A DNA stretch of 64,000 nt from a phage: assembly GCA_036253495.1 (NCBI GenBank), contig GCA_036253495.1_4125.1, one strand, 5' to 3'. This document shows positions 7,659 to 59,355 of the stretch, piece after piece. How positions within the stretch are numbered: position 1 is the stretch's first letter; every line of letters begins with the position of its first letter. The translations under genes were made by a program, and so were the position numbers. A model generated the notes under the pieces. That model was not told the origin of the DNA. It ran no database searches and saw only the letters and a program-made list of their open reading frames with translations.

Positions 7659-7659
7659 T

Positions 7660-17910: not shown

Positions 17911-17939
17911 TTGACATTAAATGTGTTCATTGCTATAAT
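17911..17939 (+). promoter_or_regulatory. consensus sigma70-type promoter (TTGACA-17nt-TATAAT)
   Basis: TTGACA 17911-17916, 17-nt spacer, TATAAT 17934-17939; inverted repeat GTGTTCAT/ATGAACAC straddles the -10. Confidence 0.6.
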
Positions 17940-17971: not shown

Positions 17972-18160
17972 ATGGCTAAACAACCTAAGAAAAAAGAACC
18001 AGAAGTTAAAGTTAAAAAAGTGAAAGTTATTCAATCCAAAGAACAACGCACTTATGAGCTACGTAAAGCTGAAACTTTAAGTGGGCTTCAGTCTCTACGT
18101 AAGCAAGGTGTACTAACACGTGCACAATATCGTGAACTGGTTGCACAAAAAGGTTTTTGA
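17972..18160 (+). CDS. small basic protein
   Basis: 62 aa, Lys-rich N-terminus; SD AAGGAAG. Confidence 0.45.
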   Translation: MAKQPKKKEPEVKVKKVKVIQSKEQRTYELRKAETLSGLQSLRKQGVLTRAQYRELVAQKGF

Positions 18161-27505: not shown

Positions 27506-27513
27506 TATAAATA
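27506..27513 (+). promoter_or_regulatory. late-promoter-like TATAAATA box
   Basis: Exact TATAAATA about 30 nt upstream of tail-fibre gene start 27545. Confidence 0.5.
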
Positions 27514-27544: not shown

Positions 27545-30244
27545 ATGGCAAAGAAAATATATGGTGGCATTGATGTTACACATAATGTAACAGTCAAAGG
27601 TAAGAGAAGTGTTCAGAGCATCAATGATAACGTATTTGATGAAAATGGCAATCTCACAATAGATGCATATACACAAGATGATATGCTGGAAATGGTTGGT
27701 ATGTTACCCATTTCTCGTTATGGTACACAAAACTATCTACCTGCTGGTGTCAATGGTACAACAGTTGGTTCTTCAGAAAATGCTAGTTCCAGAAATACAA
27801 AATTATTTTTGGAAGATGATAACACTTTAGTAATGTTACGTCCGGGTACTAATGGAAGTTCACAGGGGATTTATTATAGTTATATGACCCAGGCGGTTGG
27901 TACAACAAATACAAGTCGTATGGTTAATACTACTCGTGCATATAAACCAAATTATTTTGGTGCTGGGTATGCAGTTTATTTGTATCCAAGCAGTGATGAT
28001 ATTACTTGTGGTTTGGTGAGAACTGAAAATTCTGATGGTACATATATTGATAGAGTTTTTGTTTCAGTCAATAATGGTACTATGAATGATACAATGCACA
28101 CTGGTATTATTCTATCAGACCATACAGCCGTACAACCTTTTGGTGCAATACAATTTGTTATTCGTGCTGAAGATGGTTCATTATACTTTTTCAGTTTAGA
28201 TACACCAAGCAATACTCTTAAAATATCCGTTACTAAAGTTACTTTTAGTCCAAGTAATAACCCAGGTGGTGGTACTTATAGTGTTACTAGAATTACTGGT
28301 TGGGCCACAAGAACTTTTTATAATGCAATGGTATATGATGACAATATTGTTCCAACTATGAAAATAAATTCAACAAATACCAATGATAATCCATACGTTT
28401 TAATTCCAAGTGGTATTATTGGGTTTGGTGTTTATATGACAGATCCAGATTTATATGTTGCACAGAAATCTGGTACATCCGAATTCAGATTTAGATTATG
28501 TGGTGATATGTGGATGACAAATGGACGATATGACACACGCCCACAACATGGTTTTAGTATGACTTTTGATGTTGTGACAAAACAATGTAAATTAGATAAT
28601 ATGTTAACGACTACACCAGTTGCTGTTAATGACACGGGTTCAAGTATGAATGTAACGGGTCAATGCATAACAAAAGATCCATTTTATCTTCACGCGGGTC
28701 TGCGTAATATTTTTAGTAATTATTGCTATGTACCATCAACTGGTGATGCATTTTGTTCATTCTCACCAAACCTCGCAGAAGCATTGAACTTATCATATGC
28801 GAAATATCCACCACAGTCATTGTTTAATTTAATGAATGTTAGAAGTGTATCAGCAACTAATTTTATTAATGGTGTAGTATCACCAAGATTTGGTTCAGCA
28901 GTTGGTTCATACCAAGTAGGTGTAGAGTTATTACCAAATAACAGTACTAAACAATATTCAAGACGTTCTGGTGATGGTCGTTTTTATCCATCCTATGCTG
29001 TACATAAAGCTACACCGAACTTCACATTTAAGTCTCTAGACTATGGTACTGTTCCTGGTTATGAACCAACACCAGACCGAGCGTTTATAACTACACCAGA
29101 ATCTAGAATTTTTATAAGTTCAATTTCTGGATCAACGGTAACGACTAATGGTGGTGTTTTGGTGGCTGATAATAGAACATCAACTCCTATTAGTTTTGAT
29201 TATAAAGGTAATGTACTGAATAATGGTACAATCAGTATGTCTCAAGATATAATGAATGCTATTCGAAATTCCGAATTTGCTAAAGTTGCTAGTTCATGGA
29301 ATATATCACCAGAATCAATAAAAACATTATCTGTATTTGTTCCACAACAAACTGATATTCCTGTTTTTGGTGTTCTTGCAGCATCTACTACAGCCCGTGG
29401 TCTATATATTCGAGTTGTTGAATTGAATGTCAATACAAGAACTGGTGATATTACAACGTGGTCGTTCAAACGTTTAGTACATGAAAGTGTTCAAGCTGGG
29501 GATTACAAAACAGATACCGCATATCATCTTGATAGTGGAAGTATTGGTATTACTATATATGATGCGGGTTCTTTCTACTTCATTGGTGGTGGTATTCCTG
29601 GTTTCTTTAATACAGTTGGTAATACAAACTCTCCATTTTTCCGTGCTACAGTGGATAAAGCGACAGCCCAATTTAATAATTTCCATATAGCTGGTGGACG
29701 TCCGATCTATGCATTAGATGGTCAACCATTCGCTTTACCTAACATTGGGTTTGGTATTCTTCAAAGTATAGATAATAATAACAAAACAATTTTTAGAACA
29801 TATGGTACAACATTAGCGGATTATAATGCATGGACTGATAAAGGAAATCCAGTTATATGTCTTGTTTCCCAAGATGTTGCTCAAGGTTTTATTATATACT
29901 TCACCGAAGAGACACCAGTACTGATATCCGGTAAACACTATACATTACCAATATCAAATATAGATTTAACAACTGTGAAAGCAAATCCTGCCAATACTAC
30001 ATTTTATGTGTATATTAAATTAGTACAGGGTATTGCAAACTATCATATATCAACAACTGAATTAGCTGAAACTCATTCAATATTCTGGATTGGTACAGTG
30101 AAAACTGATAATTTACAAATAACCGAAATTAATATAGAAAAACGTTCTCGTTTAGACCTGTTTGGTTCATCATTCAACGCTGCCGGAAGTTCCTTCCCAG
30201 TAAGTTCTGGGTTCCCTTCAAGTTCTGGTAATGTGAATTGGTAA
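27545..30244 (+). CDS. tail fibre-like protein (899 aa)
   Basis: Large late ORF; shares N-terminal motif (D.M...LP.SR.G.Q.YLP...NGT) with 30856-33597 and C-terminal ~130-aa module with both neighbours. Confidence 0.55.
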   Translation: MAKKIYGGIDVTHNVTVKGKRSVQSINDNVFDENGNLTIDAYTQDDMLEMVGMLPISRYGTQNYLPAGVNGTTVGSSENASSRNTKLFLEDDNTLVMLRPGTNGSSQGIYYSYMTQAVGTTNTSRMVNTTRAYKPNYFGAGYAVYLYPSSDDITCGLVRTENSDGTYIDRVFVSVNNGTMNDTMHTGIILSDHTAVQPFGAIQFVIRAEDGSLYFFSLDTPSNTLKISVTKVTFSPSNNPGGGTYSVTRITGWATRTFYNAMVYDDNIVPTMKINSTNTNDNPYVLIPSGIIGFGVYMTDPDLYVAQKSGTSEFRFRLCGDMWMTNGRYDTRPQHGFSMTFDVVTKQCKLDNMLTTTPVAVNDTGSSMNVTGQCITKDPFYLHAGLRNIFSNYCYVPSTGDAFCSFSPNLAEALNLSYAKYPPQSLFNLMNVRSVSATNFINGVVSPRFGSAVGSYQVGVELLPNNSTKQYSRRSGDGRFYPSYAVHKATPNFTFKSLDYGTVPGYEPTPDRAFITTPESRIFISSISGSTVTTNGGVLVADNRTSTPISFDYKGNVLNNGTISMSQDIMNAIRNSEFAKVASSWNISPESIKTLSVFVPQQTDIPVFGVLAASTTARGLYIRVVELNVNTRTGDITTWSFKRLVHESVQAGDYKTDTAYHLDSGSIGITIYDAGSFYFIGGGIPGFFNTVGNTNSPFFRATVDKATAQFNNFHIAGGRPIYALDGQPFALPNIGFGILQSIDNNNKTIFRTYGTTLADYNAWTDKGNPVICLVSQDVAQGFIIYFTEETPVLISGKHYTLPISNIDLTTVKANPANTTFYVYIKLVQGIANYHISTTELAETHSIFWIGTVKTDNLQITEINIEKRSRLDLFGSSFNAAGSSFPVSSGFPSSSGNVNW

Positions 30245-30254
30245 TGGAGATAAT

Positions 30255-30845
30255 ATGGCTTATAAATTTAGATCTGATGTGGAAGCGTATGCTTCCGTTA
30301 AATCACAAGGAAAAAATACTGGGACCACGATAACTGATCGTTCTGGTAATGTGTATCAAGCTGATGCTAATGGGAATGTTGATGTACCACTCATGAGTAC
30401 AGATGATGTGAATTACATTACCAGTTCCTTTCCGTTATCACAATTTGGTTCACTTTACAGTACTGAACCATTGGGTATTTCTGCTGCTGGTTTCAATTTA
30501 ACTTTCAGCAAAGAATTACCGTTATTCATGGCGGGAGCGGCGTATACCCTCCCAGCTAAAACAATAACGGACCCAGGAGTTACTGGAACTAATATTGAAA
30601 CACATTATGTATATGTTATATTAGATGTTGGGGTAGCTGACTACCTCATTTCTAAAACTCAACGCCCTGAAAGTAGTGTTAATATGTACATAGGACAACT
30701 GACAGTTTTCCCAGATGGCATTACAGGGGTCAGTATAAATAAAGTGTCAAGATTTGACGACTTCAGAGTAAGTGCTACAAAAATTGGTTCAGCTATCCCT
30801 ATCAGTTCTGGTACACCAGATGTGAATAGTGGGACAGAATGGTAA
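30255..30845 (+). CDS. tail fibre-associated protein sharing C-terminal module
   Basis: 196 aa; C-terminal KVSRF...IPISSGTPDVNSGTEW parallels termini of the flanking large proteins. Confidence 0.5.
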   Translation: MAYKFRSDVEAYASVKSQGKNTGTTITDRSGNVYQADANGNVDVPLMSTDDVNYITSSFPLSQFGSLYSTEPLGISAAGFNLTFSKELPLFMAGAAYTLPAKTITDPGVTGTNIETHYVYVILDVGVADYLISKTQRPESSVNMYIGQLTVFPDGITGVSINKVSRFDDFRVSATKIGSAIPISSGTPDVNSGTEW

Positions 30846-30855
30846 AGGAATATAT

Positions 30856-33597
30856 ATGGCTTCGAGACGAATTATAGGAAACGCAGAAATACTAGGGAAT
30901 TTGAAAATTAATGGAAAGTATGCATTACGTTCCTTTAATGGATTCCCTGCTGATTCTGCTGGTAATATCACTTACCAATATTATGACAAAGCGGAAGTGG
31001 ATCAAATGTTTGATATGCTTCCTGTTTCAAGGGTAGGTGATCAAGATTACCTACCGATGAGTATTAACGGTACATTTGAAGGTGCTTCTTCCTTTTCATT
31101 TGCAAAAATAATGCAACCTTGTATCATTGAAAATGATGGTACTGGTGTAATTTTACGTGCAGGTACAAATGGAAGTTCTTATGGTTTCTATTATGCTTAT
31201 ATAAAAAATATAAGAGATATAGAAACATTAACTCAAGATAATATAATTACAACCAACACGATGTATAGACCTTCTGTGCTACCAAGTACTGATTACATTT
31301 ATGAATTTTATGGGTCAAATGCATATGAATTACTATTTTGGGAATCGACTGATAGAGCATCATACTACCTTACATTAACAAATGAAACATTAAATGAATC
31401 TGCTCATAAACACTGTAGAATTCCAAAAACAGCAATAACAAATAAACCAATCTATGCACACATCGTAAATGATTCAGTTTATATATGGTGTATGGATTCA
31501 AGTGTATTGAGTAGTGTTCGCGGGTGTGCATTTATCATATACACAGTACCTTTAACTGCATTTAATACTGGTTCAGTTTCGACAGTAACACAGATTAGTG
31601 GTTATTCAGGAAGAACTATAAGAAATGTAACATACACTGCATCTAATAATATTCGTGTTTATGATAGTTATTCAGTGTTGGGTTCAGGTGGTGATGCACT
31701 AATAGCATATGATAATGGTGTTTCCAGAATAGATTATTGGGAAAATAACGCATTTAATACCCAAGCAGTTCTTAGCCCTGATGGTACAAAAATAAGAGTA
31801 GCGATATATCCAGGGTTTCGTGTCTTTACCGCAACAAAAACATCTAGTGTATATGCACTTGGTATCAGCTTTACATATGATATCAGTACTAAAACAATGA
31901 CACTTGACGGTTCTGAACGTGGTCCAATCAGAGTATCAGCTAATACATCAACTGGTAGTATAACAGTGAGTAACCCGTTTTCAATCAATATGGAAAACTT
32001 TACAGGGTTTTATGATGGTGCACTTGGTAACTATGGTTCAATCTGTCAAACTTCTGATGGTTTTGTTTTCACTACCAAAGCAAGATGGTCATCCATGCCG
32101 ACCTATGCAGTACAAACATACAAAGTTTCTGGTACACCTTATGATAGTTGGGTTGCTAAAACACGTACTGGTAGTAATTTAAAACGTGTAGAAGTAATGC
32201 CAGTTTATGGCTCCCCTGTCGGTGAAAACTTAATAGGTGTTCGTTTCGTAGATAAACGTAAGATACTTGTTGCATGTTCTGGTACTGCTGATGGAATTTC
32301 TTATGGTTATGATAGTACAGTTTTTACTGAAATAGGTGAGAATCCAACTTATAGTTATAAAAACTTGGAACAAAATACCACAATGAATGGTTTTGCACCA
32401 TCAGGTAATAGACACTATTTAAGTACTGATTACAAATATGCAGGTATGGTAACATTGGTTGATGCCAATGGAAATGTCAGCACTTATGGATCTTCTTTAA
32501 TAGAAGGTATCGATAAACCAGCTTATGGAAAATTCGACCCTGTTACAATGGACTTTAACAATGATAGATATGAAATTTCAGGAACTACATTATCAGGTAT
32601 AGGTTATAATGCCGTTGCTAAAGCTGGATTGACTGGAATAACTGAACATAAAACTGTTTTTTATTATGTACCTGATACTACATATTCTAAATCTATTGCA
32701 GTCACTTCTGCACTAAACGGTACTACCAACGTGTGTTATATTATTTTTTCCGAAATATCATGTAGTGCACTGGGTACAAGTGGTACTATAATTTTACGTG
32801 GTATTAGTGTTGATACAGCAAGATATACATCAATCACGAATACATTCCAAATTTCACCAAATGAAATGATCAAACGTTGGGCTGGTATGACTGTTGCTAA
32901 GTTTAGTGGTTTTAACTACTTAGGTGTGAACATTTTATATGGCATTGATACCCCAGGTTGGACTCGTTATCCTAACATGATTGCTAAAGTGAAAAATGGT
33001 ATTATTTCAAGTCAACGATATATGGAAACAACTTATATTTCAAACGCACAATTTGATATAGGTACAATTCCAGGGATTGGGTTTGGATATTACCAAATGA
33101 ACAAAAACGATTATCAAACTAAATCAGTTTTTGCTGTATGTGGTACTACTGAAGCAGATATGGATAAACTAATATCTGGTAATGAAACGATATCACAGTA
33201 CTTAGTTGTTGCTTCACAGGATGTGGCACAAGGGTTCAACGTGTACTTTTCACAAGAAGTACCAGTTTTCTTGGGTGGAAAGTTTGCAAAGATACCACCG
33301 ACTATGATAGACTTATCTACCATAAGTACTACACCAGATAATTCAACATTCTACATATATGCGGTTATGGATAGAGGTACATCTACAGCTTCGTATCAGA
33401 TATCACTATATCAATTATCAGAAACTATGACATCAACCTACATTGGTAAGATAGTAACTGATGCTAATGGTATTGCATCAATCGAGTCTGAAAAAGTGTC
33501 CAGATTCTTGCTATACCGCCCAAGTACCTACAATCGTGGTTCTGCTATCCCAGCTAGTTCTGGGTTACCATCACAATCTGGTACTCGTTGGAGTTAA
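30856..33597 (+). CDS. tail fibre-like protein (about 913 aa)
   Basis: ATG at 30856 after SD AAGGAA (track start 30829 lies inside previous gene); shared N- and C-terminal modules with 27545-30244. Confidence 0.55.
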   Translation: MASRRIIGNAEILGNLKINGKYALRSFNGFPADSAGNITYQYYDKAEVDQMFDMLPVSRVGDQDYLPMSINGTFEGASSFSFAKIMQPCIIENDGTGVILRAGTNGSSYGFYYAYIKNIRDIETLTQDNIITTNTMYRPSVLPSTDYIYEFYGSNAYELLFWESTDRASYYLTLTNETLNESAHKHCRIPKTAITNKPIYAHIVNDSVYIWCMDSSVLSSVRGCAFIIYTVPLTAFNTGSVSTVTQISGYSGRTIRNVTYTASNNIRVYDSYSVLGSGGDALIAYDNGVSRIDYWENNAFNTQAVLSPDGTKIRVAIYPGFRVFTATKTSSVYALGISFTYDISTKTMTLDGSERGPIRVSANTSTGSITVSNPFSINMENFTGFYDGALGNYGSICQTSDGFVFTTKARWSSMPTYAVQTYKVSGTPYDSWVAKTRTGSNLKRVEVMPVYGSPVGENLIGVRFVDKRKILVACSGTADGISYGYDSTVFTEIGENPTYSYKNLEQNTTMNGFAPSGNRHYLSTDYKYAGMVTLVDANGNVSTYGSSLIEGIDKPAYGKFDPVTMDFNNDRYEISGTTLSGIGYNAVAKAGLTGITEHKTVFYYVPDTTYSKSIAVTSALNGTTNVCYIIFSEISCSALGTSGTIILRGISVDTARYTSITNTFQISPNEMIKRWAGMTVAKFSGFNYLGVNILYGIDTPGWTRYPNMIAKVKNGIISSQRYMETTYISNAQFDIGTIPGIGFGYYQMNKNDYQTKSVFAVCGTTEADMDKLISGNETISQYLVVASQDVAQGFNVYFSQEVPVFLGGKFAKIPPTMIDLSTISTTPDNSTFYIYAVMDRGTSTASYQISLYQLSETMTSTYIGKIVTDANGIASIESEKVSRFLLYRPSTYNRGSAIPASSGLPSQSGTRWS

Positions 33598-33602
33598 AAA
33601 AA

Positions 33603-33634
33603 TTAAGCCTGTCTATTGACAGGCTTTTCTTTTA
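33603..33634 (+). terminator. intrinsic terminator (GCCTGTC-TATT-GACAGGC then TTTTCTTTT)
   Basis: Perfect hairpin after tail-fibre block. Confidence 0.6.
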
Positions 33635-33666
33635 TCCGTATAATGCTAAAAAACTAGGAGGAAACT

Positions 33667-34227
33667 ATGGTACAATCACGTTTTAGACCACCGCTGTCAC
33701 CAGCACAGTTACAACGTTTAAAAGAAAAAGAGCAGCACTTTCAGAATACCCTAGTAGTTCGTTTGCTATGCAAAAGTGTAACTCTTAAAGATTTTGTGAA
33801 AACCGATAATGAACGTAAATCACTTATCGAACTTAAGTACAAGTTAAGTAAGCATAAACTATATGGATTACTAGCAGAATACACCCAAAATCCATTCAGT
33901 GATCGTTGGTCTATGGTTCAAAAAAAACTGTGGGGTGGTGATGAAGAATTCACACTACGTGATTTAAAAAATGCAATCATGTTTAAGGTCGATTATACAC
34001 CAGCAGGGATTGAACACAGAACCGAAGAAACTATCATTCAATCAAGAGATTTATCATGTGTTGTTTCTTCAAACTTCGGTGTTCATTATGATATGCTTGA
34101 TGACGATGAGTTAATGATCCTGTTCCATGTGATTATTGGTGCTGAAGATATTAAAGAAAAGTTATCACAAATTGAAGAAGAACAGCGTAAATTCAAAATC
34201 CAAAAGAGAATAACTGATTTATATTAA
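33667..34227 (+). CDS. hypothetical protein, paralog family member 1 of 3
   Basis: 186 aa; shares TD-(N/E)-(E/D)-R motif region and coiled-coil-like C-terminus with next two genes. Confidence 0.45.
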   Translation: MVQSRFRPPLSPAQLQRLKEKEQHFQNTLVVRLLCKSVTLKDFVKTDNERKSLIELKYKLSKHKLYGLLAEYTQNPFSDRWSMVQKKLWGGDEEFTLRDLKNAIMFKVDYTPAGIEHRTEETIIQSRDLSCVVSSNFGVHYDMLDDDELMILFHVIIGAEDIKEKLSQIEEEQRKFKIQKRITDLY

Positions 34228-34236
34228 GAGGTTACT

Positions 34237-34737
34237 ATGTTTTTCAAAAAGAAAAATAATGATCACAAAAGAGAAAATGTAGAGTGGTGTACATTAATTC
34301 TTCCAGTACTGATGAAAAGCTATTCTTTAAAAGAAATTATCCGTACTGATGAAGATCGTAGAACTATACTTAAAATTAAAGAAATGTTAAGTTCTCATTC
34401 TCTAATGAAACTAATCACAGACCTAGTTAAAGAACCATACGGTGAACGTTGGTTATATGAACCAGTATTCATATATGGTAATCATATCAACCGTGTAAAA
34501 TTGTTTGATACCGAAACTAAGGTTGATTTTAATGCAGTAACATATTCATCTAAAGATTATGATGAAAAACATACATTTGTTTATATTAACGGAGATGCGA
34601 ATATTCTACCTAAACATGAACAAATGTTTTTGTTTCATTTACTCGTTGCACTTCGTGAGCTTGAAACAAAGTACAAGAAGTTAGAATACGAGCAGCATAA
34701 ACTTAATGAATTTAATAAATTAAAAGGATTATACTAA
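34237..34737 (+). CDS. hypothetical protein, paralog family member 2 of 3
   Basis: 166 aa; paralogous to 33667-34227. Confidence 0.45.
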   Translation: MFFKKKNNDHKRENVEWCTLILPVLMKSYSLKEIIRTDEDRRTILKIKEMLSSHSLMKLITDLVKEPYGERWLYEPVFIYGNHINRVKLFDTETKVDFNAVTYSSKDYDEKHTFVYINGDANILPKHEQMFLFHLLVALRELETKYKKLEYEQHKLNEFNKLKGLY

Positions 34738-35243
34738 TGTTCTTCGGTAAACATAAAGTAAAAGATGATGGTATTCTTCAGTACTTAGTTGCGTTGATTT
34801 TAAACAAAAGTACTTTATTAGTACCTAATATTAAATCAGACAAAGATCGCAGAGAAATTATTCAAAACAAATATCTTCTTTCAAAATGTGATCCTGTTAT
34901 CTATGCATTTTGTAAGTACTGTTCAAAAAACTTGTTCAGTATTCATGTAGATTTTGAAAGACAAGAAAGCAGCACACGAAATTCTTGTTTTAAAGTGTAT
35001 ATGATTAATGATTTAAATCGTGGGAATCGAGGGTTCATGTTCTGGATGGACGGACGTGATATACGTGTGCGTATTAAAATGTCAGTTGGGTGGAAGGATT
35101 TTTCAACTTCTGTATCTGATTTTCTTGTACTTCACGCACTATATAACAGTATTACTAACGTGAAAGATATCGACAAGAAAATTCAGGAACAAAAAGAATT
35201 GGATGATGCAAAGAACGAATACTTACAACATTACAGGAGTTAA
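34737..35243 (+). CDS. hypothetical protein, paralog family member 3 of 3 (divergent)
   Basis: 168 aa; same size and N-terminal MFF-K start as member 2. Confidence 0.4.
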   Translation: MFFGKHKVKDDGILQYLVALILNKSTLLVPNIKSDKDRREIIQNKYLLSKCDPVIYAFCKYCSKNLFSIHVDFERQESSTRNSCFKVYMINDLNRGNRGFMFWMDGRDIRVRIKMSVGWKDFSTSVSDFLVLHALYNSITNVKDIDKKIQEQKELDDAKNEYLQHYRS

Positions 35244-35246
35244 TAT

Positions 35247-35648
35247 ATGGATCTTGATGATGTGTATAGCACCATAAGACAGATGGATTCGTATAAAAAA
35301 GTATATAGTGGTTACAAGAGTGATAAACAATTTTATGGAATCGGGGAGTATGATGTAATATCATTCGAATACGATGATACTGGTGAAAGTTCCATTAATA
35401 TTGTTTGTCCTCGTGACCGTGAAAATAACTTCATGTACGTTGAAATCAATAATGATGGTTTACACTTTACTAAAATATTAAATGGTGGCAAACAATCTAT
35501 TTCTCTGGATTTATCCGAAGAAGAAAAGTTCTTTCAAGAAGATACTATAATCAATCTAGGTTTTAGTTTATCAGAATACAAAGTTCTTCATAAAGATTTC
35601 ATGAAGTACTATAATGGGTTTCTTAAGGAGCTAACATTACATCTATGA
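35247..35648 (+). CDS. hypothetical protein
   Basis: 133 aa ORF. Confidence 0.45.
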   Translation: MDLDDVYSTIRQMDSYKKVYSGYKSDKQFYGIGEYDVISFEYDDTGESSINIVCPRDRENNFMYVEINNDGLHFTKILNGGKQSISLDLSEEEKFFQEDTIINLGFSLSEYKVLHKDFMKYYNGFLKELTLHL

Positions 35649-36886
35649 ATAATAACAAATTTCTTGAACAAACAATTGTGAAGCACTTAGCAGGTTCACA
35701 AGCGTATGGAACCAGTACACCTGAAAGTGATACGGATTATCGTGGTATTTTTCTTGCTAACAAAGAGTTCATTCTGACACCTTTTTATAATGTAAAAGAA
35801 GTTTCTGATTCAAGAGAAGAAGATACTAAATTCTATGAACTAAACCAGTACTTAAGACTATACACAGAGGCTAACCCAAATATCCTTGAATCACTATGGG
35901 TTGATCCTGAACACATCGTAGAAAGTACTGAAATCTATGATTATCTACGTACATTCAATCAACAATTACTTAGTTCTAAGATCGCATTCTCTTATACCGG
36001 TTATGCATATAATCAGGTTAAACGTATGTCCAATCACCACGGGTGGATGGATAAAGAGCGTATTGCTGAAAAACGTCTAAATGAAATCTTAGAAGATTTT
36101 CCTGTAGATGAAACTTTAGCATGGATGTATGAAAACTTCCCACACTATTTGGTAGAACGTTTAGATACTTCTAAACTACATCCATTTAATGCTAAGAAAA
36201 TAGATTTTGAAAAATACATGCGTGATACTTCATTGCAGTTAGTTTCGACTCATCCGTTGAAACAGTATCATTTTGTACGTTTAGTACATAATTACAGTAC
36301 TGATAAAGTACTAGACCGTGATTTCAACTTATTGGATTATAACAATGGGTACGAATTAATTCATTACGGTGAAAATATCTTTGGTGTTATTATCAATCCT
36401 AATGAAAGTACAATTAACGCTGATGGTTCTTTACGTTATTTCAACAAAGAACGCAGTACTGAAGAATTGAAAGTGCGACCTGAACTCATTGTTAAATTCA
36501 ATGAAAAAGAATACAGTGAGAACAGTGAGAACCGTAAAAGTTATCACAAATGGAAAGAGAATCGTAATGCTAAACGTGCAATTCTTGAATCCAAACACGG
36601 CTACGATTGCAAACATGCTATGCATACGATCAGACTTTTGAATACAGCCGAAGAAGCATTACAAAGCGGTATTATCCTTGTTAAACGTCCTGATGCTGAT
36701 ATGCTAATGGATATCCGCAACGGTAAATGGAAGTATGAAGAAGTCATGGATTATTTCAATGAAAAGGTTGACTATATCCGCAATGTGGTGTATCCTAAGT
36801 CAGTTCTACCAAAGAAACCAAACATTCAACTAGCTGCAAAAGTTCTAATCGATATTCGAGAAATGCAGTGGTATGGTAAAAAATAA
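35645..36886 (+). CDS. nucleotidyltransferase-fold protein (Pol-beta superfamily)
   Basis: Classic motif HLAGSQAYGTSTPESDTDYRGIF (GS-x10-DxD); 413 aa with large C-terminal extension. Confidence 0.55.
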   Translation: MNNNKFLEQTIVKHLAGSQAYGTSTPESDTDYRGIFLANKEFILTPFYNVKEVSDSREEDTKFYELNQYLRLYTEANPNILESLWVDPEHIVESTEIYDYLRTFNQQLLSSKIAFSYTGYAYNQVKRMSNHHGWMDKERIAEKRLNEILEDFPVDETLAWMYENFPHYLVERLDTSKLHPFNAKKIDFEKYMRDTSLQLVSTHPLKQYHFVRLVHNYSTDKVLDRDFNLLDYNNGYELIHYGENIFGVIINPNESTINADGSLRYFNKERSTEELKVRPELIVKFNEKEYSENSENRKSYHKWKENRNAKRAILESKHGYDCKHAMHTIRLLNTAEEALQSGIILVKRPDADMLMDIRNGKWKYEEVMDYFNEKVDYIRNVVYPKSVLPKKPNIQLAAKVLIDIREMQWYGKK

Positions 36887-36895
36887 GAGGATTAT

Positions 36896-37321
36896 ATGCT
36901 GAATTCAACAATTATTGATGCACTACGTGTACTGAATCGCGAAGTTAGCCGTATCCATAAAAGTACTGATCGTTATAAAGTAATGCATGAAATTAAACTA
37001 GAATTAGAAGCTATCAATAAGGGTGAATGGTTCCTTGAACCAGAATACCGTACACGTGGACCAACTGACGTTGAGAAAGCAATTGCAAAATTCATTTCTG
37101 GACGTTATGGTGATGTATCAGAGGCAGATGTACTGATGAATTTACATTTAACCTCCTTAGAAATTGAAGAAAAATTCAAATTTGATTCACTGGACTGGGT
37201 AGAAATGATCATGGAACTTGAAGATGAATTTAAGGTTGAGATCGAAGATAAGTATGAATCTGGAGATACCAGAATCGTGCATCTCGTTGAACATGTACAA
37301 ACAATGATCGATAAACGCTAA
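36896..37321 (+). CDS. hypothetical protein
   Basis: 141 aa ORF. Confidence 0.45.
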   Translation: MLNSTIIDALRVLNREVSRIHKSTDRYKVMHEIKLELEAINKGEWFLEPEYRTRGPTDVEKAIAKFISGRYGDVSEADVLMNLHLTSLEIEEKFKFDSLDWVEMIMELEDEFKVEIEDKYESGDTRIVHLVEHVQTMIDKR

Positions 37322-37366: not shown

Positions 37367-37741
37367 ATGAGTGTACTAGATATTATTGTTTCAAAAGTAC
37401 TGATACCGTTCTGGAAACCAATTGCGTTTGTTCTCCTGATGGCATCATGTACTTTTGGTGGCTGGAAGGCTAATACTTTTTATACTGGGTATAAAGAAAG
37501 TATTGAATTAAAAATAGAGAAGAAAGTAGATGCGGCTTTAAGTAAAATTGAAAGCCAAAATACCAAAAACTATGTAGAAACTAAACAGATAATGCAAAAT
37601 AATGCAAAGGTAATAGAAACTAAAGTACCAGTTATTATTGAGCGTGAAGTGTATAGAAATGTATGTTTAGATGAAGAAGGGGTAAAACTTTTGAATGATC
37701 TAAAACAAAATTCACTTGCAGCTAGAGAGAAATTTAAATGA
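37367..37741 (+). CDS. i-spanin-like membrane protein
   Basis: N-terminal TM helix then charged, coiled-coil-like region; immediately upstream of a lipoprotein gene. Confidence 0.4.
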   Translation: MSVLDIIVSKVLIPFWKPIAFVLLMASCTFGGWKANTFYTGYKESIELKIEKKVDAALSKIESQNTKNYVETKQIMQNNAKVIETKVPVIIEREVYRNVCLDEEGVKLLNDLKQNSLAAREKFK

Positions 37742-38052
37742 AATACATATTAACATTCTTGATTACTTTTATGTTTATCACTGGGTGTTCTAATAAGGTT
37801 CCAGTTCAAGCGTCACCAATAATCACCCAGGAAATCTTATTAGAACGATGCGAAGAAGATACACCAATTCCTAAAAAAATTGTTGTTGACTCACATGGTA
37901 ATAGAGGATATGCTGGTGATGAAATTCTTAACGTTCTGACGCGTTGGGATTCCATGTACAATGAATGTGCACTGAGATATGATGCACTAATTGATACAAT
38001 TCGCAAACTCCAAGACCAAAATATTCGTGTTAACATAAAAGTTAAGGAATAG
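37738..38052 (+). CDS. o-spanin-like lipoprotein
   Basis: Signal peptide with lipobox ITGCS; start overlaps upstream stop. Confidence 0.45.
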   Translation: MKYILTFLITFMFITGCSNKVPVQASPIITQEILLERCEEDTPIPKKIVVDSHGNRGYAGDEILNVLTRWDSMYNECALRYDALIDTIRKLQDQNIRVNIKVKE

Positions 38053-38053
38053 T

Positions 38054-38665
38054 ATGTCTAAATATCATGTTTATTATGTAACCAAATTGAGTTTACTAGA
38101 TGAACTCAATCATACTAGTACCAAAATGAAACGTTATACTTATAATGGTATTACTTTCAGATACTTTCCACAAAAAGTACTAACATTCGTTAAGAATTGT
38201 AAGTGCGTTGCTTGTGGCATCGAGGCTACAGAAGTTCGAATCGAACGTTCTAACTGTAGTGATCCGGTATATGGTAAACCGCATTTAAATGTGTATGCAG
38301 TATGTGGTCTTTATGAAGTTATGATGACTGTAGATCATAATCATCTTGCATCTAAAGGTGGTGCTGATTTGGAGTCAAACTTCAATACTATGTGTGCGAG
38401 ATGTAATCAGTTGCGTTCAAATAAAACTGAAACAGTTGATGAATTCCTTGAGAAAGTCAAAAGCCGAAATCTACTTGAAGAACATATGAATCGTTATTTC
38501 AATAAGATTGAGAAGGAAAGTAAACGTCCTACACCAGAAATGCTCGAAGAACGTAGATTGCGTCAAGAGCTATGGGATAACGATCATCTGTGGCATGTTC
38601 GTGAGTACGGGCGACACATGAAAGCATTAAAAAAGGCACAAAAGCTGTTGGATAAACATGAGTAA
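38054..38665 (+). CDS. HNH endonuclease
   Basis: CKCVACG ... DHNH ... CARCNQ arrangement typical of HNH nucleases. Confidence 0.55.
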   Translation: MSKYHVYYVTKLSLLDELNHTSTKMKRYTYNGITFRYFPQKVLTFVKNCKCVACGIEATEVRIERSNCSDPVYGKPHLNVYAVCGLYEVMMTVDHNHLASKGGADLESNFNTMCARCNQLRSNKTETVDEFLEKVKSRNLLEEHMNRYFNKIEKESKRPTPEMLEERRLRQELWDNDHLWHVREYGRHMKALKKAQKLLDKHE

Positions 38666-38677
38666 TATGTTATAATA

Positions 38678-38706
38678 GGGACTTGAGAAATCAAGTCCTT
38701 TTTTAA
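38678..38706 (+). terminator. intrinsic terminator (GGACTTGA-GAAA-TCAAGTCC then T6)
   Basis: Perfect 8-bp stem plus U-tract. Confidence 0.65.
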
Positions 38707-42742: not shown

Positions 42743-43240
42743 ATGTATACAATTATATTATTGCGTAGTTCATATGGTGAATCTGATTGTGCAACTGATG
42801 GTATAATGAGTTTTGATTACGCACATAGTACATCAGATGCGATTGATACCATTAAAGAGATTGTACGAACTGAACATTACCGTGTACGTTCTGAACCATC
42901 GAATGCATTTGCCGATATTGCAATCACTGCCTTGTATAATGGTAAAGTTTTTAGTACGTACCCACAATATTCTGAAGATATCTATATAGTTGCTGAAGCA
43001 CCAGAATTCAGTACTGAAGAAGAAAAGTACATTTTCAATGTTGGTGATATAATGTTTTCAGAAAGTAAGAAAATCACAAAAAATCATGCTTTCTGTGAAC
43101 GAATTAAAAACGAAGAAAATGTATTAGGTATAAAGTTAAAAACACTATATTCTAATAGCTTACTTGAAGAACAAGAACGTAAACGTCTTACTGAACTAAT
43201 GGAAAAGTATCCTGATATGGTGAAAAATTATGGCACTTAG
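42743..43240 (+). CDS. hypothetical protein
   Basis: 165 aa ORF. Confidence 0.45.
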   Translation: MYTIILLRSSYGESDCATDGIMSFDYAHSTSDAIDTIKEIVRTEHYRVRSEPSNAFADIAITALYNGKVFSTYPQYSEDIYIVAEAPEFSTEEEKYIFNVGDIMFSESKKITKNHAFCERIKNEENVLGIKLKTLYSNSLLEEQERKRLTELMEKYPDMVKNYGT

Positions 43241-55612: not shown

Positions 55613-58276
55613 ATGGCAGGAGAACTCCTATCGCCTGGCGTTTCCATTTCAGTTACTGATGAAAGTATGAGCACTGCTTCCGCACCTGGAACAGTACCAC
55701 TATTCATCATTGCTACCGCAGAAGATAAATTAGTACCAGGTAGCAACACAATCGCTGCTGGAACCACAAAAGCAAATGCTGGTAAGTTGCAACTTCTAAC
55801 TTCTCAGAAAAGTTCACTAGACACTTACGGCACACCGATTTTTCAATCAAGTAATGGTTCAGTTGTTCAAGGTGACGAACTAAACGAATACGGCCTACAT
55901 GCTGCTTATTCTTACCTTGGTATTACTAACCGTGCTTATGTTGTACGTGCAGATATCGACTTAGCACAACTATCACCTTCTGCTACTGCTCCAACTGGTC
56001 CAGTACCAAACGGTACATTGTGGCTAGATGTTGCTCAATCACAAGTTGAAGCATATGTTTCTAAAGTGGATTCACCAACCAGTTTCTATGACTGGCAACT
56101 AAAACCAGTAACTATTGTTAGTGCTGAAGAAGTTAGTGATGTTAGCCTAGTTGGTATTAACGTTGACGATCTAGTACTACGTTATAAGCCAAGCAATGGT
56201 CAAATGCTAATGTACAAACGTGCAGCATCTGGTCTAGTTCAAGTTGAAACTTACCTTTCACCAATCAACAAAGTACCAGTAGGTAATACAGTTGAGAAAG
56301 GTAATATCTGGATTCGTGATGGTTACACTCAAAATGGTGCTAATTACTTCGGTACTCGTTTTGTTATTAAACGTTATGCATCCCTAACTCAAGTTTGGAA
56401 TCAAGTACAAGCATTCACTGGTAACAGTTTCCAAGAAATTGAATCCAAAAGTGGTGTTCTAAATAACAGCTTCATCGCTACTCGTTTTGACTGGGATAGT
56501 AAGAGTTTCTCTTTCTATATTCAAAGTGCAAAACTACCAGCACTAAGTGCTCCAGCGATTCCAGTTGGTGAAACTGTAGTTGTTCAAGCAGACCAAGATT
56601 CTTACTTGACTTTCTCTTATTTGACCAAAACTGTTAAAGTACTAGCAGTTGCACTAGGTGGTGTTATTAACACTCAAACTATTCTTGACAATCTAAATGC
56701 TTCATCTGAACTAATCAATGATGGCTTTAAATTTAAAAGAGAAAGTAATGGTGGCCTAGTAATTAATAGTTCTAAAGGTTATAGTTTCAAAACTGCACAA
56801 AGTGGTAGTGTACTATTTGATGAAGATGAATTTGCAAAACTAACTGTTGATAGTAATAACTATGCTTTGATTAACGTTAACAATTTCCGTGTTGATAGTA
56901 ACGTTCCACGTAGTATCGCTAAAGAAGGTACTCTATGGTATGATTTCAGTAATTCTGATAATCTAAATGTTACCATGTATCTAGCTGATGTTGCTAATGA
57001 CAAATGGGTTGAAGTTGACGAAGCTAACAAATATGTGCAAGTTGACGAACCTGCTGCTGACCGTACAATCTGGGTTTCTCCTAAATCACAAGGTATTGAT
57101 GGCTACGATTTCTATCGTAATGTTAATGGTGAGTGGGTTAAACTTGACAGTACTGATCAAAGTACACTAAACGGTATGATCTTCAAGGACTTTAACTTCC
57201 CTGAACAAGTTCCAGCGGCTGCTCTATACCAAAACGGTATGCTCGCAATCGACCTTGGAAATACTGAAGGTGTGGTTAAGAAAATGATCGATGGATTTTG
57301 GCATGTTGTCAGTGGTGTTGGTCTTGATGGGAATGGCTTGTTTGGTCGTGCTGCTCAACGCCAATTGGTTGTAGAAGCACTAAATGCAGTTATCGTTGGA
57401 AACGATGATATCCGTTCTGAATTCATTGACTTTAACCTAATTTCTGTTCCTGGTTATGTTGAATGTTTAGATGAGTGTGTGACCCTAAACACCGACCGTA
57501 AAGAAACTGCTTTCATCGTAACTGATGTTCCAGCACGTTTGAACCCAACTGGTAACGGTAATGCTGTTCAACAATGGGCAACTAACGCAAATAACGCACC
57601 AAGTAATGGTGATGTTGGTCGTACTACTGCATATGATTATGCTGCTCAATATATGGGCTGGTGCTTAAGTACTAACGTTGATGGTGAAGAAGTTGCAGTT
57701 CCTGGCAGTACTATTGCAATGCGTACCTATGCATACAGCGACAGCGTAAGTTATGTATGGTATCCACCTGCTGGTACTACTCGTGGTGTTGTAACAAACG
57801 CTGCATCTGTAGGCTTCATCAATGATGAAGGTGAATATCAGCCAGTAGTTTATAACCAAGGTCAACGTGATGTAATGTACACCAACAACATTAACCCAAT
57901 TGCAATGCGTCCAAATCGTGGTTTGCTAGTATATGGTGATAAAACACTATCTCCTAACCAAACTTCCGCATTAAGCCGTGTTAACGTTGCACGTTTAGTA
58001 GTGTATATTCGTCGTCAACTAGAAATTATTTCTGAACCATTCCTATTCCGTTTGAATACTCCAAGTACTCGTCAGGAATTCAGTGGTGTAGTTAATAGCT
58101 TCCTAGCTGAAATCGTTCAACAACAAGGTCTATATAACTTCGCAGTTGTTTGTGATGAAAGTAACAACACCTCCGAGCGTATTGACCGTAACGAACTTTG
58201 GATGGATATCGCAATCCAACCTACTAAGTCTATCAACTTCATTTACGTACCGATTCGTATTGAAAAGACTCAATAA
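55613..58276 (+). CDS. contractile tail sheath protein
   Basis: N-terminus MAGELLSPGVSISVT and C-terminal region (VNVARLVVYIRRQLE ... YNFAVVCDESNNTSERIDRNELWMDIAIQPTKSINFIYV) parallel T4 gp18 termini as recalled. Confidence 0.7.
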   Translation: MAGELLSPGVSISVTDESMSTASAPGTVPLFIIATAEDKLVPGSNTIAAGTTKANAGKLQLLTSQKSSLDTYGTPIFQSSNGSVVQGDELNEYGLHAAYSYLGITNRAYVVRADIDLAQLSPSATAPTGPVPNGTLWLDVAQSQVEAYVSKVDSPTSFYDWQLKPVTIVSAEEVSDVSLVGINVDDLVLRYKPSNGQMLMYKRAASGLVQVETYLSPINKVPVGNTVEKGNIWIRDGYTQNGANYFGTRFVIKRYASLTQVWNQVQAFTGNSFQEIESKSGVLNNSFIATRFDWDSKSFSFYIQSAKLPALSAPAIPVGETVVVQADQDSYLTFSYLTKTVKVLAVALGGVINTQTILDNLNASSELINDGFKFKRESNGGLVINSSKGYSFKTAQSGSVLFDEDEFAKLTVDSNNYALINVNNFRVDSNVPRSIAKEGTLWYDFSNSDNLNVTMYLADVANDKWVEVDEANKYVQVDEPAADRTIWVSPKSQGIDGYDFYRNVNGEWVKLDSTDQSTLNGMIFKDFNFPEQVPAAALYQNGMLAIDLGNTEGVVKKMIDGFWHVVSGVGLDGNGLFGRAAQRQLVVEALNAVIVGNDDIRSEFIDFNLISVPGYVECLDECVTLNTDRKETAFIVTDVPARLNPTGNGNAVQQWATNANNAPSNGDVGRTTAYDYAAQYMGWCLSTNVDGEEVAVPGSTIAMRTYAYSDSVSYVWYPPAGTTRGVVTNAASVGFINDEGEYQPVVYNQGQRDVMYTNNINPIAMRPNRGLLVYGDKTLSPNQTSALSRVNVARLVVYIRRQLEIISEPFLFRLNTPSTRQEFSGVVNSFLAEIVQQQGLYNFAVVCDESNNTSERIDRNELWMDIAIQPTKSINFIYVPIRIEKTQ

Positions 58277-58626: not shown

Positions 58627-58634
58627 TATAAATA
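58627..58634 (+). promoter_or_regulatory. late-promoter-like TATAAATA box
   Basis: Exact TATAAATA about 38 nt upstream of tube-like gene start 58672. Confidence 0.5.
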
Positions 58635-58671: not shown

Positions 58672-59355
58672 ATGGCTACTATGCTAGATCGATATGGCGT
58701 TCCGCTTGCTGGTGGTGGTCGTATTTCAATGAAACAACCAAAAGCAAAATATAAATTCCGTGTAATTTTCTTTGGTTTTGGTGCCAATGATGATGGCAAC
58801 ATGATTACACTAGATACAAACACTGTTGGTGCAGTATCTGTATCGCATGAAAACGTAACTGTTCATAGTTATAACAGTTCCGCACACTATAAAGGCAAAT
58901 ATACTTGGGATGCGATTGAAGTTGCTTTCCGTGATTCAGTTGGTAATGCTTCAGCAAAAGCACTTTACAACCAAATGCGTAAAGAATTCAACTACTATAG
59001 TCAAGAATCTCGTATGACTGATTCCCAGTTTAAATTTGAAATGTGGATTCAAGAACTAGATGGTTCTAACAGCGAAAATGCAACAAACCTTTTTGAAGGT
59101 ACTCTAAGTACTTGGGTTTGTCAGGGTTGCTTTATTGAATCCAGCAACTTTGGTGATTGGGATTATTCTTCAAGCGAAGCACAAGTTATTACAATGAGTG
59201 TTCAACCAGATGGTTGTGCTAAGTTGGGTCCAAACGGTGAAGCATTCGGTGATGAAGTTACTGGTTTCGGTAATCCAAGTACTGCATCTTCTATTAGTGG
59301 TGCACAAACCAACATTAGTAGTACTACACTACCTGATACAAACTTCTTTGATTAA
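58672..59355 (+). CDS. tail tube-like protein (paralog 1)
   Basis: Follows sheath gene; N-terminus YGVPLAGGGRISMKQPKAKYKFRVIFFGFG paralogous to next gene; tube assignment by position. Confidence 0.45.
   Translation: MATMLDRYGVPLAGGGRISMKQPKAKYKFRVIFFGFGANDDGNMITLDTNTVGAVSVSHENVTVHSYNSSAHYKGKYTWDAIEVAFRDSVGNASAKALYNQMRKEFNYYSQESRMTDSQFKFEMWIQELDGSNSENATNLFEGTLSTWVCQGCFIESSNFGDWDYSSSEAQVITMSVQPDGCAKLGPNGEAFGDEVTGFGNPSTASSISGAQTNISSTTLPDTNFFD

What the first reader, a model, noticed from the sequence alone, without database searches (positions are those of the whole stretch)
33667..35243. Three tandem paralogs of a roughly 170-aa family directly after the tail-fibre block
The three consecutive genes are of similar length. 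The first two share (K/R)TD-(N/E)-(E/D)-R-(K/R)..(I/L)..(L/I)K.(K/M)LS.H and a Lys/Glu-rich C-terminal helix; the third is more divergent but keeps the MFF-K start, size and charged tail. Tandem diversified paralogs beside receptor-binding genes could be fibre assembly factors or a diversified effector family.
Basis: seen in the sequence. Interest (0 to 1): 0.4.

Follow-up and report, generated by a model that had tools for sequence, protein, structure and literature searches.

The report
Early-promoter paralogue trio in jumbo phage
Three neighbouring genes in an E. coli jumbo phage are true ancient copies of one small protein family of unknown function; they sit beside the tail-fibre genes but are switched on separately, so they are probably early host-directed factors and not fibre-assembly helpers.

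Summary
ORFs 33667-34227, 34237-34737 and 34737-35243 are full-length paralogues: P1/P2 BLASTP E=4e-15, and type I (P1, P2) versus type II (P3) profiles give hhalign 98.8%, E=4.5e-17. The window is an Asteriusvirus (98.5% identical to phage A4). The family is confined to RaK2-like jumbo phages (44 clusters among 1.84 billion proteins; PHROGs 18641 and 7868, function unknown), with 2-4 copies per genome. The proteins are soluble, basic and about 20 kDa. A confident AlphaFold model (pLDDT 86.5) has no solved structural relative. The fibre-assembly reading is not supported. A terminator and a perfect sigma-70 promoter separate the trio from the fibre genes, clade-wide, whereas every fibre unit carries a T4-late-type (T)ATAAATA motif. 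Phage ph0011 combines window-type fibres (90-94% identity) with a trio only 33-37% identical to the window's. RaK2 keeps the family behind unrelated tailspikes. The orthologues are absent from the phAPEC6 virion proteome. The trio heads a tight operon with an RlaP RNA-repair nucleotidyltransferase. dN/dS of 0.15-0.22 indicates purifying selection. Most likely these are early, non-structural host-directed or counter-defence factors; the biochemical function remains unknown. Interest is modest.

The parts
27506..27513 (+). TATAAATA, a T4-late-type promoter motif 31 nt upstream of the first fibre-like gene. Context: it marks the fibre block as a predicted late unit.
   Evidence: Only 3 copies on the + strand in 64 kb (5 on both strands, against 11 expected). 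Two of them precede the large fibre genes. The same placement occurs in A4, 121Q, ph0011 and Munch. The late-promoter class was proposed for this clade in PMC5259590.
27545..33597 (+). Fibre-like block: a 899-aa protein (27545-30244), a 196-aa stand-alone fibre C-terminal domain (30255-30845) and a ~913/922-aa protein (30829 or 30856-33597), with a second TATAAATA at 30734.
   Evidence: ORFs. The 196-aa protein matches positions 879-998 of the ~1000-residue PHROG 3573. The phAPEC6 orthologue gp323c was detected in virions (PMC7247149).
33605..33626 (+). Intrinsic terminator hairpin (9-bp stem, 4-nt loop, T-rich tail) that closes the fibre unit.
   Evidence: Conserved in A4, 121Q, JNE01 and SD-1_S14 with a compensatory stem change. 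Equivalent terminators occur in Muenster, RaK2, Munch and GAP32.
33616..33644 (+). Perfect sigma-70 consensus promoter TTGACA-17-TATAAT, with the -35 box embedded in the terminator hairpin.
   Evidence: A 12/12 match. There are only 2 perfect sites in 64 kb against 0.05 expected. Conserved as TTGACR-17-TATAMT in Asteriusvirus and as TTGACA-17-TAAAAT or TATTAT in Muenster, RaK2 and Munch; GAP32 has tandem copies.
33657..33662 (+). AGGAGG ribosome-binding site, 4 nt upstream of the P1 ATG.
   Evidence: Read directly from the sequence.
33667..34227 (+). P1, 186 aa, type I family member (phrog_18641).
   Evidence: dN/dS 0.153 against the L009 allele.
34237..34737 (+). P2, 166 aa, type I family member. 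This is the protein that was modelled.
   Evidence: AlphaFold2 model pLDDT 86.5, pTM 0.74: helices 13-25, 30-34, 38-52 and 57-65; strands 72-80, 84-91, 96-102 and 113-117; helix 126-165. dN/dS 0.160.
34737..35243 (+). P3, 168 aa, type II family member (phrog_7868). Its start codon overlaps the P2 stop codon by 1 nt.
   Evidence: dN/dS 0.224.
35247..35648 (+). 133-aa ORF (phrog_22376, function unknown). Always follows the family, but is not a member.
   Evidence: Synteny.
35645..36886 (+). RlaP-family (PF10127) Pol-beta nucleotidyltransferase, an RNA 3'-end repair enzyme. Its start overlaps the end of the 133-aa ORF by 4 nt.
   Evidence: Pfam E=1.8e-16 and phrog_388 at 2e-75. Function of the family from PMC12776372 and PMC7824862.
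36896..38665 (+). Rest of the putative operon: ACP-like 141-aa protein (36896-37321), i-spanin (37367-37741), o-spanin (37738-38052) and HNH endonuclease (38054-38665).
   Evidence: Annotations of the orthologues in A4, 121Q, RaK2 and Muenster.
38677..38700 (+). Next strong intrinsic terminator (10-bp stem plus T-run). Likely end of the transcription unit that starts at 33616.

Best explanation
The three genes are ancient paralogues of a protein family specific to RaK2-like jumbo phages. There are two deep types: type I (P1 and P2) and type II (P3). The proteins are soluble, basic and about 20 kDa, and they are not part of the virion. Each has a disordered Lys-rich N-terminal tail, a small helical subdomain that carries the invariant KS..L...D.DR..I..KY.LSK motif, a four-strand beta-meander of variable sequence, and a 40-residue C-terminal helix ending in a conserved Tyr. 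They are the promoter-proximal genes of a tightly packed operon driven by a consensus sigma-70 promoter. That operon starts just after the terminator of the late fibre unit and also encodes an RlaP RNA-repair nucleotidyltransferase. The inferred mechanism is that host RNA polymerase transcribes them early in infection and they act in the cytoplasm on host components, in host takeover or in countering host defence. On this reading the variable middle region supplies target specificity, and both types are retained because they do different jobs or work together. Shown: paralogy, clade restriction, the promoter/terminator architecture and its conservation, uncoupling from the fibres, absence from one virion proteome, and purifying selection. 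Inferred: early timing (by analogy with T4 and the promoter classes proposed for phage CBB), host-directed action, and any link to RNA repair.
For: Paralogy and the two types. Clade restriction: 44 representative clusters among 1.84 billion proteins, all 160-200 aa, found in Asteriusvirus, Alcyoneusvirus, Munch-like phages, GAP32, Yersinia fHe-Yen9, Serratia BF, Erwinia, Pectobacterium and Xanthomonas XbC2. Own promoter after a terminator; conserved across four genera. Fibre units instead carry (T)ATAAATA, including the optional fibre pair in A4, 121Q and JNE01 as an internal control. Promoter classes and a gp55-like sigma factor have been proposed for this clade (PMC5259590). Tight junctions, with a 9-nt gap, a 1-nt overlap, a 3-nt gap and a 4-nt overlap, run into the RlaP gene. 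Non-virion: phAPEC6 MS detected gp314c, gp315c and gp323c but not gp319c-321c. Independent assortment from the fibres: ph0011. The family is kept behind unrelated RaK2/Muenster tailspikes. The trio ranks among the most divergent genes in the window, at 33-36% identity to 121Q (3rd, 5th and 6th of 58), against about 50% for the fibres and 87% for RlaP. dN/dS of 0.15-0.22 is the same as for neighbouring genes. The proteins are soluble and basic with no transmembrane segment. The operon partner RlaP is an RNA-repair, counter-defence enzyme (PMC12776372, PMC7824862), and GAP32 has a Thg1-like tRNA-repair gene inserted between family members.
Against: There are no expression data for any phage of this clade, so 'early' rests on promoter sequence alone. 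The same unit contains spanins, which are not typical early genes, so internal promoters or mixed timing are likely. No similarity to any characterised host-takeover or anti-defence protein was found by sequence or by fold. The link to RlaP may be nothing more than gene order inherited within a single clade. Several other window genes are equally divergent, so the divergence is not a unique signature. Absence from one virion proteome is negative evidence.
Confidence: 0.45

Rival explanations
1. The proteins are tail-fibre or whisker assembly chaperones. They would be non-structural proteins that help the adjacent ~900-aa trimeric fibre-like proteins fold or attach, like T4 gp38/gp57A or the Tfa proteins encoded downstream of fibre genes.
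For: The position immediately downstream of the receptor-binding or fibre block is conserved in every genus examined. The size is typical of chaperones, and the proteins are absent from the virion, as chaperones are. RaK2 gp534, the last fibre gene before the family, has repeats of the kind that need chaperones in T4 and Mu (PMC10253068). From my own knowledge of T4 biology, the general fibre chaperone gp57A is not restricted to late expression.
Against: A conserved terminator and a sigma-70 promoter separate the family from the fibres, while all fibre units have late-type motifs. ph0011 pairs the same fibres (90-94% identity) with a trio only 33-37% identical. The family is retained although the RaK2/Muenster tailspikes are unrelated to the Asteriusvirus and GAP32 fibres. 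Copy number does not track fibre number. The optional extra fibre pair comes and goes without any change in the trio. No hit to Caudo_TAP, gp38 or any other chaperone family, and no fold match.
Confidence: 0.17
2. The proteins bind nucleic acid and regulate the phage's own programme (transcription, replication or RNA handling). They would act as dimers or heteromers through the long C-terminal helix, and would not target the host.
For: Basic pI (family median 8.95), a Lys-rich N-terminal tail, a small N-terminal helical subdomain with invariant Arg/Lys/Tyr/Ser residues, and a 40-residue amphipathic C-terminal helix suited to oligomerisation. A predicted early promoter. Every genome keeps both deep types in fixed order, as expected for a heteromer. 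The weak best PDB sequence hit is an XRE-type regulator (E=0.087).
Against: No HTH or other DNA/RNA-binding Pfam domain is matched, even at E<=1. The PDB hit is not significant and the fold search finds no regulator. Divergence of 33-36% between otherwise close phages is high for a regulator that recognises conserved phage sites.
Confidence: 0.2
3. The proteins are dedicated accessory subunits or specificity factors of the RlaP RNA-repair nucleotidyltransferase encoded in the same operon. They might, for example, present damaged tRNAs or neutralise a host anticodon nuclease.
For: The order family, then 133-aa ORF, then RlaP is fixed across genera and the genes are translationally coupled. GAP32 has a Thg1-like tRNA-repair gene inserted among the family copies. 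RlaP is established as an RNA 3'-end repair enzyme. RnlA/RNase LS recurs as the top fold hit in two libraries, though not significantly.
Against: All carriers belong to one clade with conserved gene order, so the linkage may simply be inherited. Bacterial RlaP enzymes work alone in vitro (PMC12776372 abstract). The RaK2 record notes similarity of its nucleotidyltransferase to a phage PVP-SE1 protein, and no PVP-SE1 record appeared among the family's tblastn hits. The fold hits have TM of about 0.25 and are not significant.
Confidence: 0.1

Closest known systems
PHROG families phrog_18641 and phrog_7868 (function unknown)
   Same: All three proteins match these families over their full length (E from 1e-32 to 1e-5). 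They are the same family as 121Q gp502-504, phAPEC6 gp319c-321c, RaK2 ORF001/002, Munch gp172-174 and GAP32 gp146/148/150/151.
   Different: PHROGs splits the family in two and gives no function. This work shows that the two PHROGs are one superfamily, that each genome keeps both types, and that they head a sigma-70-driven operon.
Tail-fibre assembly chaperones encoded downstream of fibre genes (T4 gp38/gp57A; Mu/P2/lambda Tfa, Pfam Caudo_TAP)
   Same: Small non-structural proteins located next to fibre genes. The size is similar to gp38 (about 180 aa, from my own knowledge).
   Different: No sequence or fold similarity. Not in the fibre transcription unit. Alleles are uncoupled from fibre alleles. 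Conserved behind unrelated receptor-binding proteins.
Early ORFan or host-takeover genes of T4-like phages, transcribed from sigma-70 consensus early promoters (established T4 biology; proposed for this clade in PMC5259590)
   Same: Consensus RpoD-type promoter, small non-virion proteins, clade-restricted, fast-diverging and frequently recombined.
   Different: No homology to any characterised T4 early protein. These are larger (about 20 kDa) and are kept as 2-4 ancient paralogues under purifying selection. Timing has not been measured.
RlaP-centred RNA-repair modules of jumbo phages (PMC7824862; PMC12776372)
   Same: Same operon, translationally coupled to an RlaP nucleotidyltransferase. A Thg1-like gene is interleaved in GAP32.
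   Different: The family itself has no recognisable RNA-repair domain and is not reported as part of such modules. The association is by position only.

Membership tests
phrog_18641 / phrog_7868 superfamily (RaK2-like jumbo-phage ~170-aa family) | Full-length profile match to the family HMMs | tested here: met
   P1 1e-32, P2 9e-24 and P3 1e-26 to their best PHROG, each also hitting the other PHROG. Own HMM: E<=1e-40 for all three.
phrog_18641 / phrog_7868 superfamily (RaK2-like jumbo-phage ~170-aa family) | Signature KS..L...D.DR..I..KY.LSK motif plus a C-terminal long helix ending in Tyr | tested here: met
   Nearly invariant S28, L31, K48, Y49, S52 and Y166 across 42 sequences. Helix 126-165 in the model.
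phrog_18641 / phrog_7868 superfamily (RaK2-like jumbo-phage ~170-aa family) | Syntenic position: after the fibre block and a terminator, before the 133-aa ORF and RlaP | tested here: met
Tail-fibre assembly chaperones (Caudo_TAP/Tfa, T4 gp38, gp57A) | Sequence or profile similarity to a known chaperone family | tested here: not met
   No Pfam, NCBIfam or annotated-PHROG hit at E<=1 or 0.1. No PDB sequence hit.
Tail-fibre assembly chaperones (Caudo_TAP/Tfa, T4 gp38, gp57A) | Co-transcription with the client fibre gene | tested here: not met
   Terminator plus an independent sigma-70 promoter in the gap. The fibres have late-type motifs. This is sequence-based; no RNA data exist.
Tail-fibre assembly chaperones (Caudo_TAP/Tfa, T4 gp38, gp57A) | Co-inheritance or co-variation with the client fibre | tested here: not met
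   ph0011 has fibres 90-94% identical to the window but a trio only 33-37% identical. RaK2/Muenster have unrelated spikes but keep the family.
Tail-fibre assembly chaperones (Caudo_TAP/Tfa, T4 gp38, gp57A) | Required for fibre folding or trimerisation | not testable with these tools
   Needs co-expression or knockout experiments.
T4-type early (sigma-70-dependent) genes | Consensus -35/-10 promoter with a 17-nt spacer directly upstream | tested here: met
   12/12 match at 33616-33644, 23 nt before the ATG. There are 2 such sites in 64 kb against 0.05 expected.
T4-type early (sigma-70-dependent) genes | Transcript present within the first minutes of infection | not testable with these tools
   No transcriptome of any RaK2-like phage was found.
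Helix-turn-helix (XRE-type) transcription regulators | Match to an HTH domain profile or fold | tested here: not met
   No Pfam hit. The only hint is a non-significant PDB sequence hit at E=0.087. No regulator appears among the fold hits.
Known defence-system proteins (PADLOC) | Profile match | tested here: not met
   No hit at E<=1.

The most novel reading that the evidence does not exclude
The two deep types form a heteromeric early factor with a previously unseen fold. It would work with the co-translated 133-aa protein and the RlaP nucleotidyltransferase as a jumbo-phage counter-defence module against host tRNA or RNA-cleaving immunity. The variable beta-meander would recognise different host nucleases or damaged RNAs, which would explain both the retention of the paralogues and their rapid allele turnover.
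Probability: 0.1. Interest if true: 0.65.

Novelty: new member of a known kind. Interest (0 to 1): 0.33.

Why it matters
About 80% of RaK2-like jumbo-phage genes have no known function. This work turns three 'hypothetical proteins' into a defined superfamily: two PHROGs merged, two ancient types, 2-4 copies per genome, and a confident model with no solved structural relative. It also makes a testable prediction about timing (a conserved sigma-70 promoter embedded in the fibre terminator) and about role. For people engineering host range in these therapeutic-candidate phages, it shows that the trio is not part of the receptor-binding cassette. Natural recombinants swap the fibres and the trio independently, at a breakpoint in the 70-nt gap. 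If the family proves to be a counter-defence or host-takeover factor linked to RNA repair, it would add a new protein fold to that repertoire. If not, it remains an ordinary clade-specific accessory family.

Tried and rejected
1. Word-indexed homologue searches with P1, with P3 and with a 12-sequence profile returned only 7 proteins. They served only as permitted input for structure prediction.
2. The first AlphaFold model, from 9 sequences, was weak (pLDDT 65.7), and its PDB fold search gave nothing. It was superseded by the 42-sequence model.
3. Foldseek against the PDB with the good model gave a best hit of E=0.058, TM 0.25 (RnlA), which I rejected as not significant. BFVD returned only uncharacterised family members, plus a few low-TM phage ORFans.
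5. The search for related loci with the 42-sequence alignment failed because no stretch was conserved enough.
6. The PDB profile search gave hits at E>=0.087: an XRE regulator and a 27-residue motif match in a phage tailspike lyase. I rejected both as chance.
7. Pfam, NCBIfam and PADLOC gave no hits for the trio.
8. Candidate fourth members were tested and rejected: the 133-aa ORF and the ORF at 42743-43240.
9. The tandem ~170-aa ORFs at 7149-8181 were tested as a second paralogue pair and rejected.
10. Positive selection as the cause of the divergence was rejected, since dN/dS is 0.15-0.22, the same as for neighbours.
11. A frameshift as the cause of the P3 difference from A4 was rejected. 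It is an in-frame micro-patch.
12. Membrane or secreted proteins were rejected: no hydrophobic segment.
13. No transcriptome of this clade exists in the searchable literature.
Full report
**What the window is.** The region 33000-36000 is 98.5% identical to Escherichia phage A4 (Asteriusvirus, 355 kb). It matches other PBECO4/121Q-type jumbo phages only in the flanks. The A4 annotation calls all three genes 'hypothetical protein'.

**Checking the observation.** Three + strand ORFs lie exactly where stated: P1 33667-34227 (186 aa), P2 34237-34737 (166 aa) and P3 34737-35243 (168 aa).
- P1 and P2 align over their full length (BLASTP E=4e-15, 24% identity).
- P3 is only weakly similar in pairwise comparison (E=1e-5 to P1 over the N-terminal 62 residues; E=0.008 to P2).
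- All three hit the same two PHROG families with reciprocal strength.
- A 12-sequence alignment with orthologues from 121Q, JNE01 and RaK2 is collinear from end to end.
- A profile of 17 type I sequences against a profile of 11 type II sequences gives hhalign probability 98.8%, E=4.5e-17 over 150 columns.

A family HMM over all six frames of the window finds exactly three members. The neighbouring 133-aa ORF and a weakly scoring ORF at 42743 are not members.

**The family.**
- An exhaustive HMM search of 1.84 billion representative proteins finds only 44 clusters (E<=1e-3). All are 160-200 aa with end-to-end matches, apart from one repetitive false positive.
- tblastn places the family in every branch of the RaK2-like jumbo phages: Asteriusvirus, Alcyoneusvirus (RaK2, K64-1, Muenster), Salmonella Munch/7t3, Cronobacter GAP32, Yersinia fHe-Yen9, Serratia BF, Erwinia pEa_SNUABM, Pectobacterium and Xanthomonas XbC2.
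- Copy number is 2 in RaK2, 3 in Asteriusvirus and Munch, and 4 in GAP32.
- The pairwise E-value matrix and a neighbour-joining tree show two deep types. Every genome examined keeps at least one of each, with type I first.
- The conserved core is KS..L...(T)D.DR..I(I)..KY.LSK, a variable middle region, and a C-terminal helix ending in a nearly invariant Tyr.
- The proteins are soluble with no hydrophobic segment, are basic (family median pI 8.95), and have a Lys-rich N-terminal tail.

**Transcription architecture.** This is the most informative result.
- The 70-nt gap between the last fibre gene and P1 holds a 9-bp-stem terminator (33605-33626).
- It overlaps a perfect TTGACA-17-TATAAT promoter (33616-33644), followed by an AGGAGG ribosome-binding site.
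- Perfect sites occur twice in 64 kb, against 0.05 expected.
- The unit is conserved in A4, 121Q, JNE01 and SD-1_S14, with a compensatory change in the stem. Terminator-plus-promoter equivalents precede the first family member in Muenster, RaK2, Munch and GAP32.
- By contrast, the T4-late motif TATAAATA occurs only three times on the coding strand. Two of these copies lie 31 nt before the 899-aa fibre gene and just before the 913/922-aa fibre gene, and the placement is the same in A4, 121Q, ph0011 and Munch.
- As an internal control, the optional fibre pair that A4, 121Q and JNE01 carry further down the same region brings its own hairpin plus AATAAATA.
- For the related phage CBB, RpoD-like promoters have been proposed as early, ATAAATA motifs as late and structural, and a gp55-like sigma factor was noted (PMC5259590).
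- Downstream, the junctions P1-P2-P3-133aa-RlaP are a 9-nt gap, a 1-nt overlap, a 3-nt gap and a 4-nt overlap. The next strong terminator is at 38677-38700.

I infer one operon starting at 33616. Its early timing is an inference from sequence, because no transcriptome exists for this clade.

**Relation to the fibres.**
- Phage ph0011 carries window-type fibre genes (90%, 91% and 94% amino-acid identity), but its trio is 86-95% identical to 121Q and only 33-37% identical to the window. The breakpoint falls in the terminator/promoter gap.
- RaK2 and Muenster have podovirus-like tailspikes with no similarity to the window's fibre proteins, yet keep the family in the same place. The RaK2 paper also notes that GAP32 lacks nearly all of the RaK2 spike homologues.
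- Copy number does not follow fibre number.
- The optional fibre pair is present or absent without any change in the trio.
- In the phAPEC6 virion proteome the flanking fibre proteins were detected, but the three orthologues (gp319c-321c) were not.

Together these results argue against a dedicated fibre chaperone. They do not exclude a general one.

**Evolution.**
- Against 121Q the trio is 33-36% identical, ranking 3rd, 5th and 6th lowest of 58 window genes with an orthologue. The fibres are at about 50% and RlaP at 87%. A few other ORFs are equally divergent, so the trio is not unique in this respect.
- Against the metagenomic contig L009, which has the same gene order, dN/dS is 0.15-0.22, indistinguishable from the neighbours.
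- dS drops from 1.4 (P1) and 0.97 (P2) to 0.08 (P3). This shows recombination inside the trio and purifying selection on real proteins.

**Functional context.** The operon partner at 35645-36886 is an RlaP-family nucleotidyltransferase (PF10127, E=1.8e-16). This family adds one or two nucleotides to damaged RNA 3' ends and is viewed as part of jumbo-phage RNA-repair counter-defence (PMC12776372, PMC7824862). In GAP32 a Thg1-like tRNA-repair gene is interleaved with family members. This is association by position within one clade and nothing stronger.

**Verdict.**
- The 'fibre assembly factor' reading is not supported.
- The 'diversified effector family' reading is compatible with the evidence but unproven.
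- My best explanation (confidence about 0.45) is a clade-specific family of early, cytoplasmic, non-structural proteins acting on host components.
- The rivals are phage-internal nucleic-acid-binding regulators (0.2), fibre chaperones (0.17) and RlaP accessory factors (0.1).
- The family is already catalogued as two PHROGs of unknown function. What is new here is their unification, the two-type structure, the conserved terminator-embedded promoter, and the uncoupling from the fibres. Interest is modest (0.33).

Noticed in passing
window 36886-36896 (compare L001 15968-19382, L002 12418-15730): The window lacks the small plus ~930-aa tail-fibre gene pair that A4, 121Q, JNE01 and SD-1_S14 carry between the RlaP gene and the ACP-like gene. 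ph0011 and the metagenomic contig L009 lack it too. Where present, the pair brings its own hairpin and an AATAAATA late-type promoter. This is a presence/absence polymorphism of a whole receptor-binding cassette between phages that are otherwise 98% identical.
   Followed up: partly
window 33605-33644: The -35 box of the trio promoter is built into the loop and 3' arm of the fibre terminator hairpin. The same compact design recurs in 121Q, JNE01, Munch and GAP32, so formation of the terminator hairpin in RNA and promoter use in DNA share the same bases.
   Followed up: partly
window 30255-30845: The 196-aa ORF between the two ~900-aa fibre-like genes matches only the last ~120 residues of ~1000-aa fibre-like proteins (phrog_3573 positions 879-998). 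It shares the C-terminal ...SSG.P..SG..W ending with both large neighbours, so it is a stand-alone copy of the fibre C-terminal domain.
   Followed up: no
window 17911-17939: The only other perfect TTGACA-17-TATAAT promoter in the window lies 33 nt upstream of a 62-aa ORF (17972-18160), just after the PhoH-like gene.
   Followed up: no
window 58627-58634: The third + strand TATAAATA motif lies 37 nt upstream of a 227-aa ORF (58672-59355), following an 887-aa ORF (55613-58276). This is probably another late structural unit.
   Followed up: no
window 34964-34994 (P3 residues ~76-87): A4 differs from the window and from L009 by about 10 substitutions plus an in-frame 3-nt deletion packed into 30 nt of the variable middle of P3, while the rest of the gene is nearly identical. 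This is a micro-patch that suggests a short gene-conversion tract.
   Followed up: partly
L009 3967-5537 versus window 33667-35243: Synonymous divergence drops from 1.4 (P1) and 0.97 (P2) to 0.08 (P3) and 0.17 (133-aa ORF), so a recombination breakpoint lies between P2 and P3. The trio is not inherited as one cassette.
   Followed up: yes
L010 (GAP32) 9520-11076: In GAP32 a Thg1-like tRNA-His guanylyltransferase and an NrdA.1-like ORF are inserted between family members, and an N4-cytosine methyltransferase lies before the RlaP gene. The region behaves as an insertion hotspot for accessory genes.
   Followed up: no
window 36896-37321: The 141-aa protein has a weak phosphopantetheine-attachment (acyl carrier protein) signature in its C-terminal half (Pfam E=0.0012, below the curated cut-off; PHROG acyl-carrier hits at 5e-11). 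It is annotated as ACP or carrier-domain protein in phAPEC6, ph0011 and GAP32, which is odd company for spanins and an HNH endonuclease.
   Followed up: no
model m68a14ce9e584 (P2): RnlA/RNase LS-like proteins are the top non-family hit in the PDB search (E=0.058, TM 0.25) and appear among the weak hits in the BFVD search (E=0.06). Neither is significant, but the recurrence is curious given the RNA-repair neighbour.
   Followed up: no
L007 (Salmonella phage SD-1_S14) 6001-7444: The three family genes appear fragmented or truncated in this record (ORFs of 163, 115, 36 and 143 aa). This is either sequencing or assembly frameshifts, or real decay of the trio in that phage.
   Followed up: no
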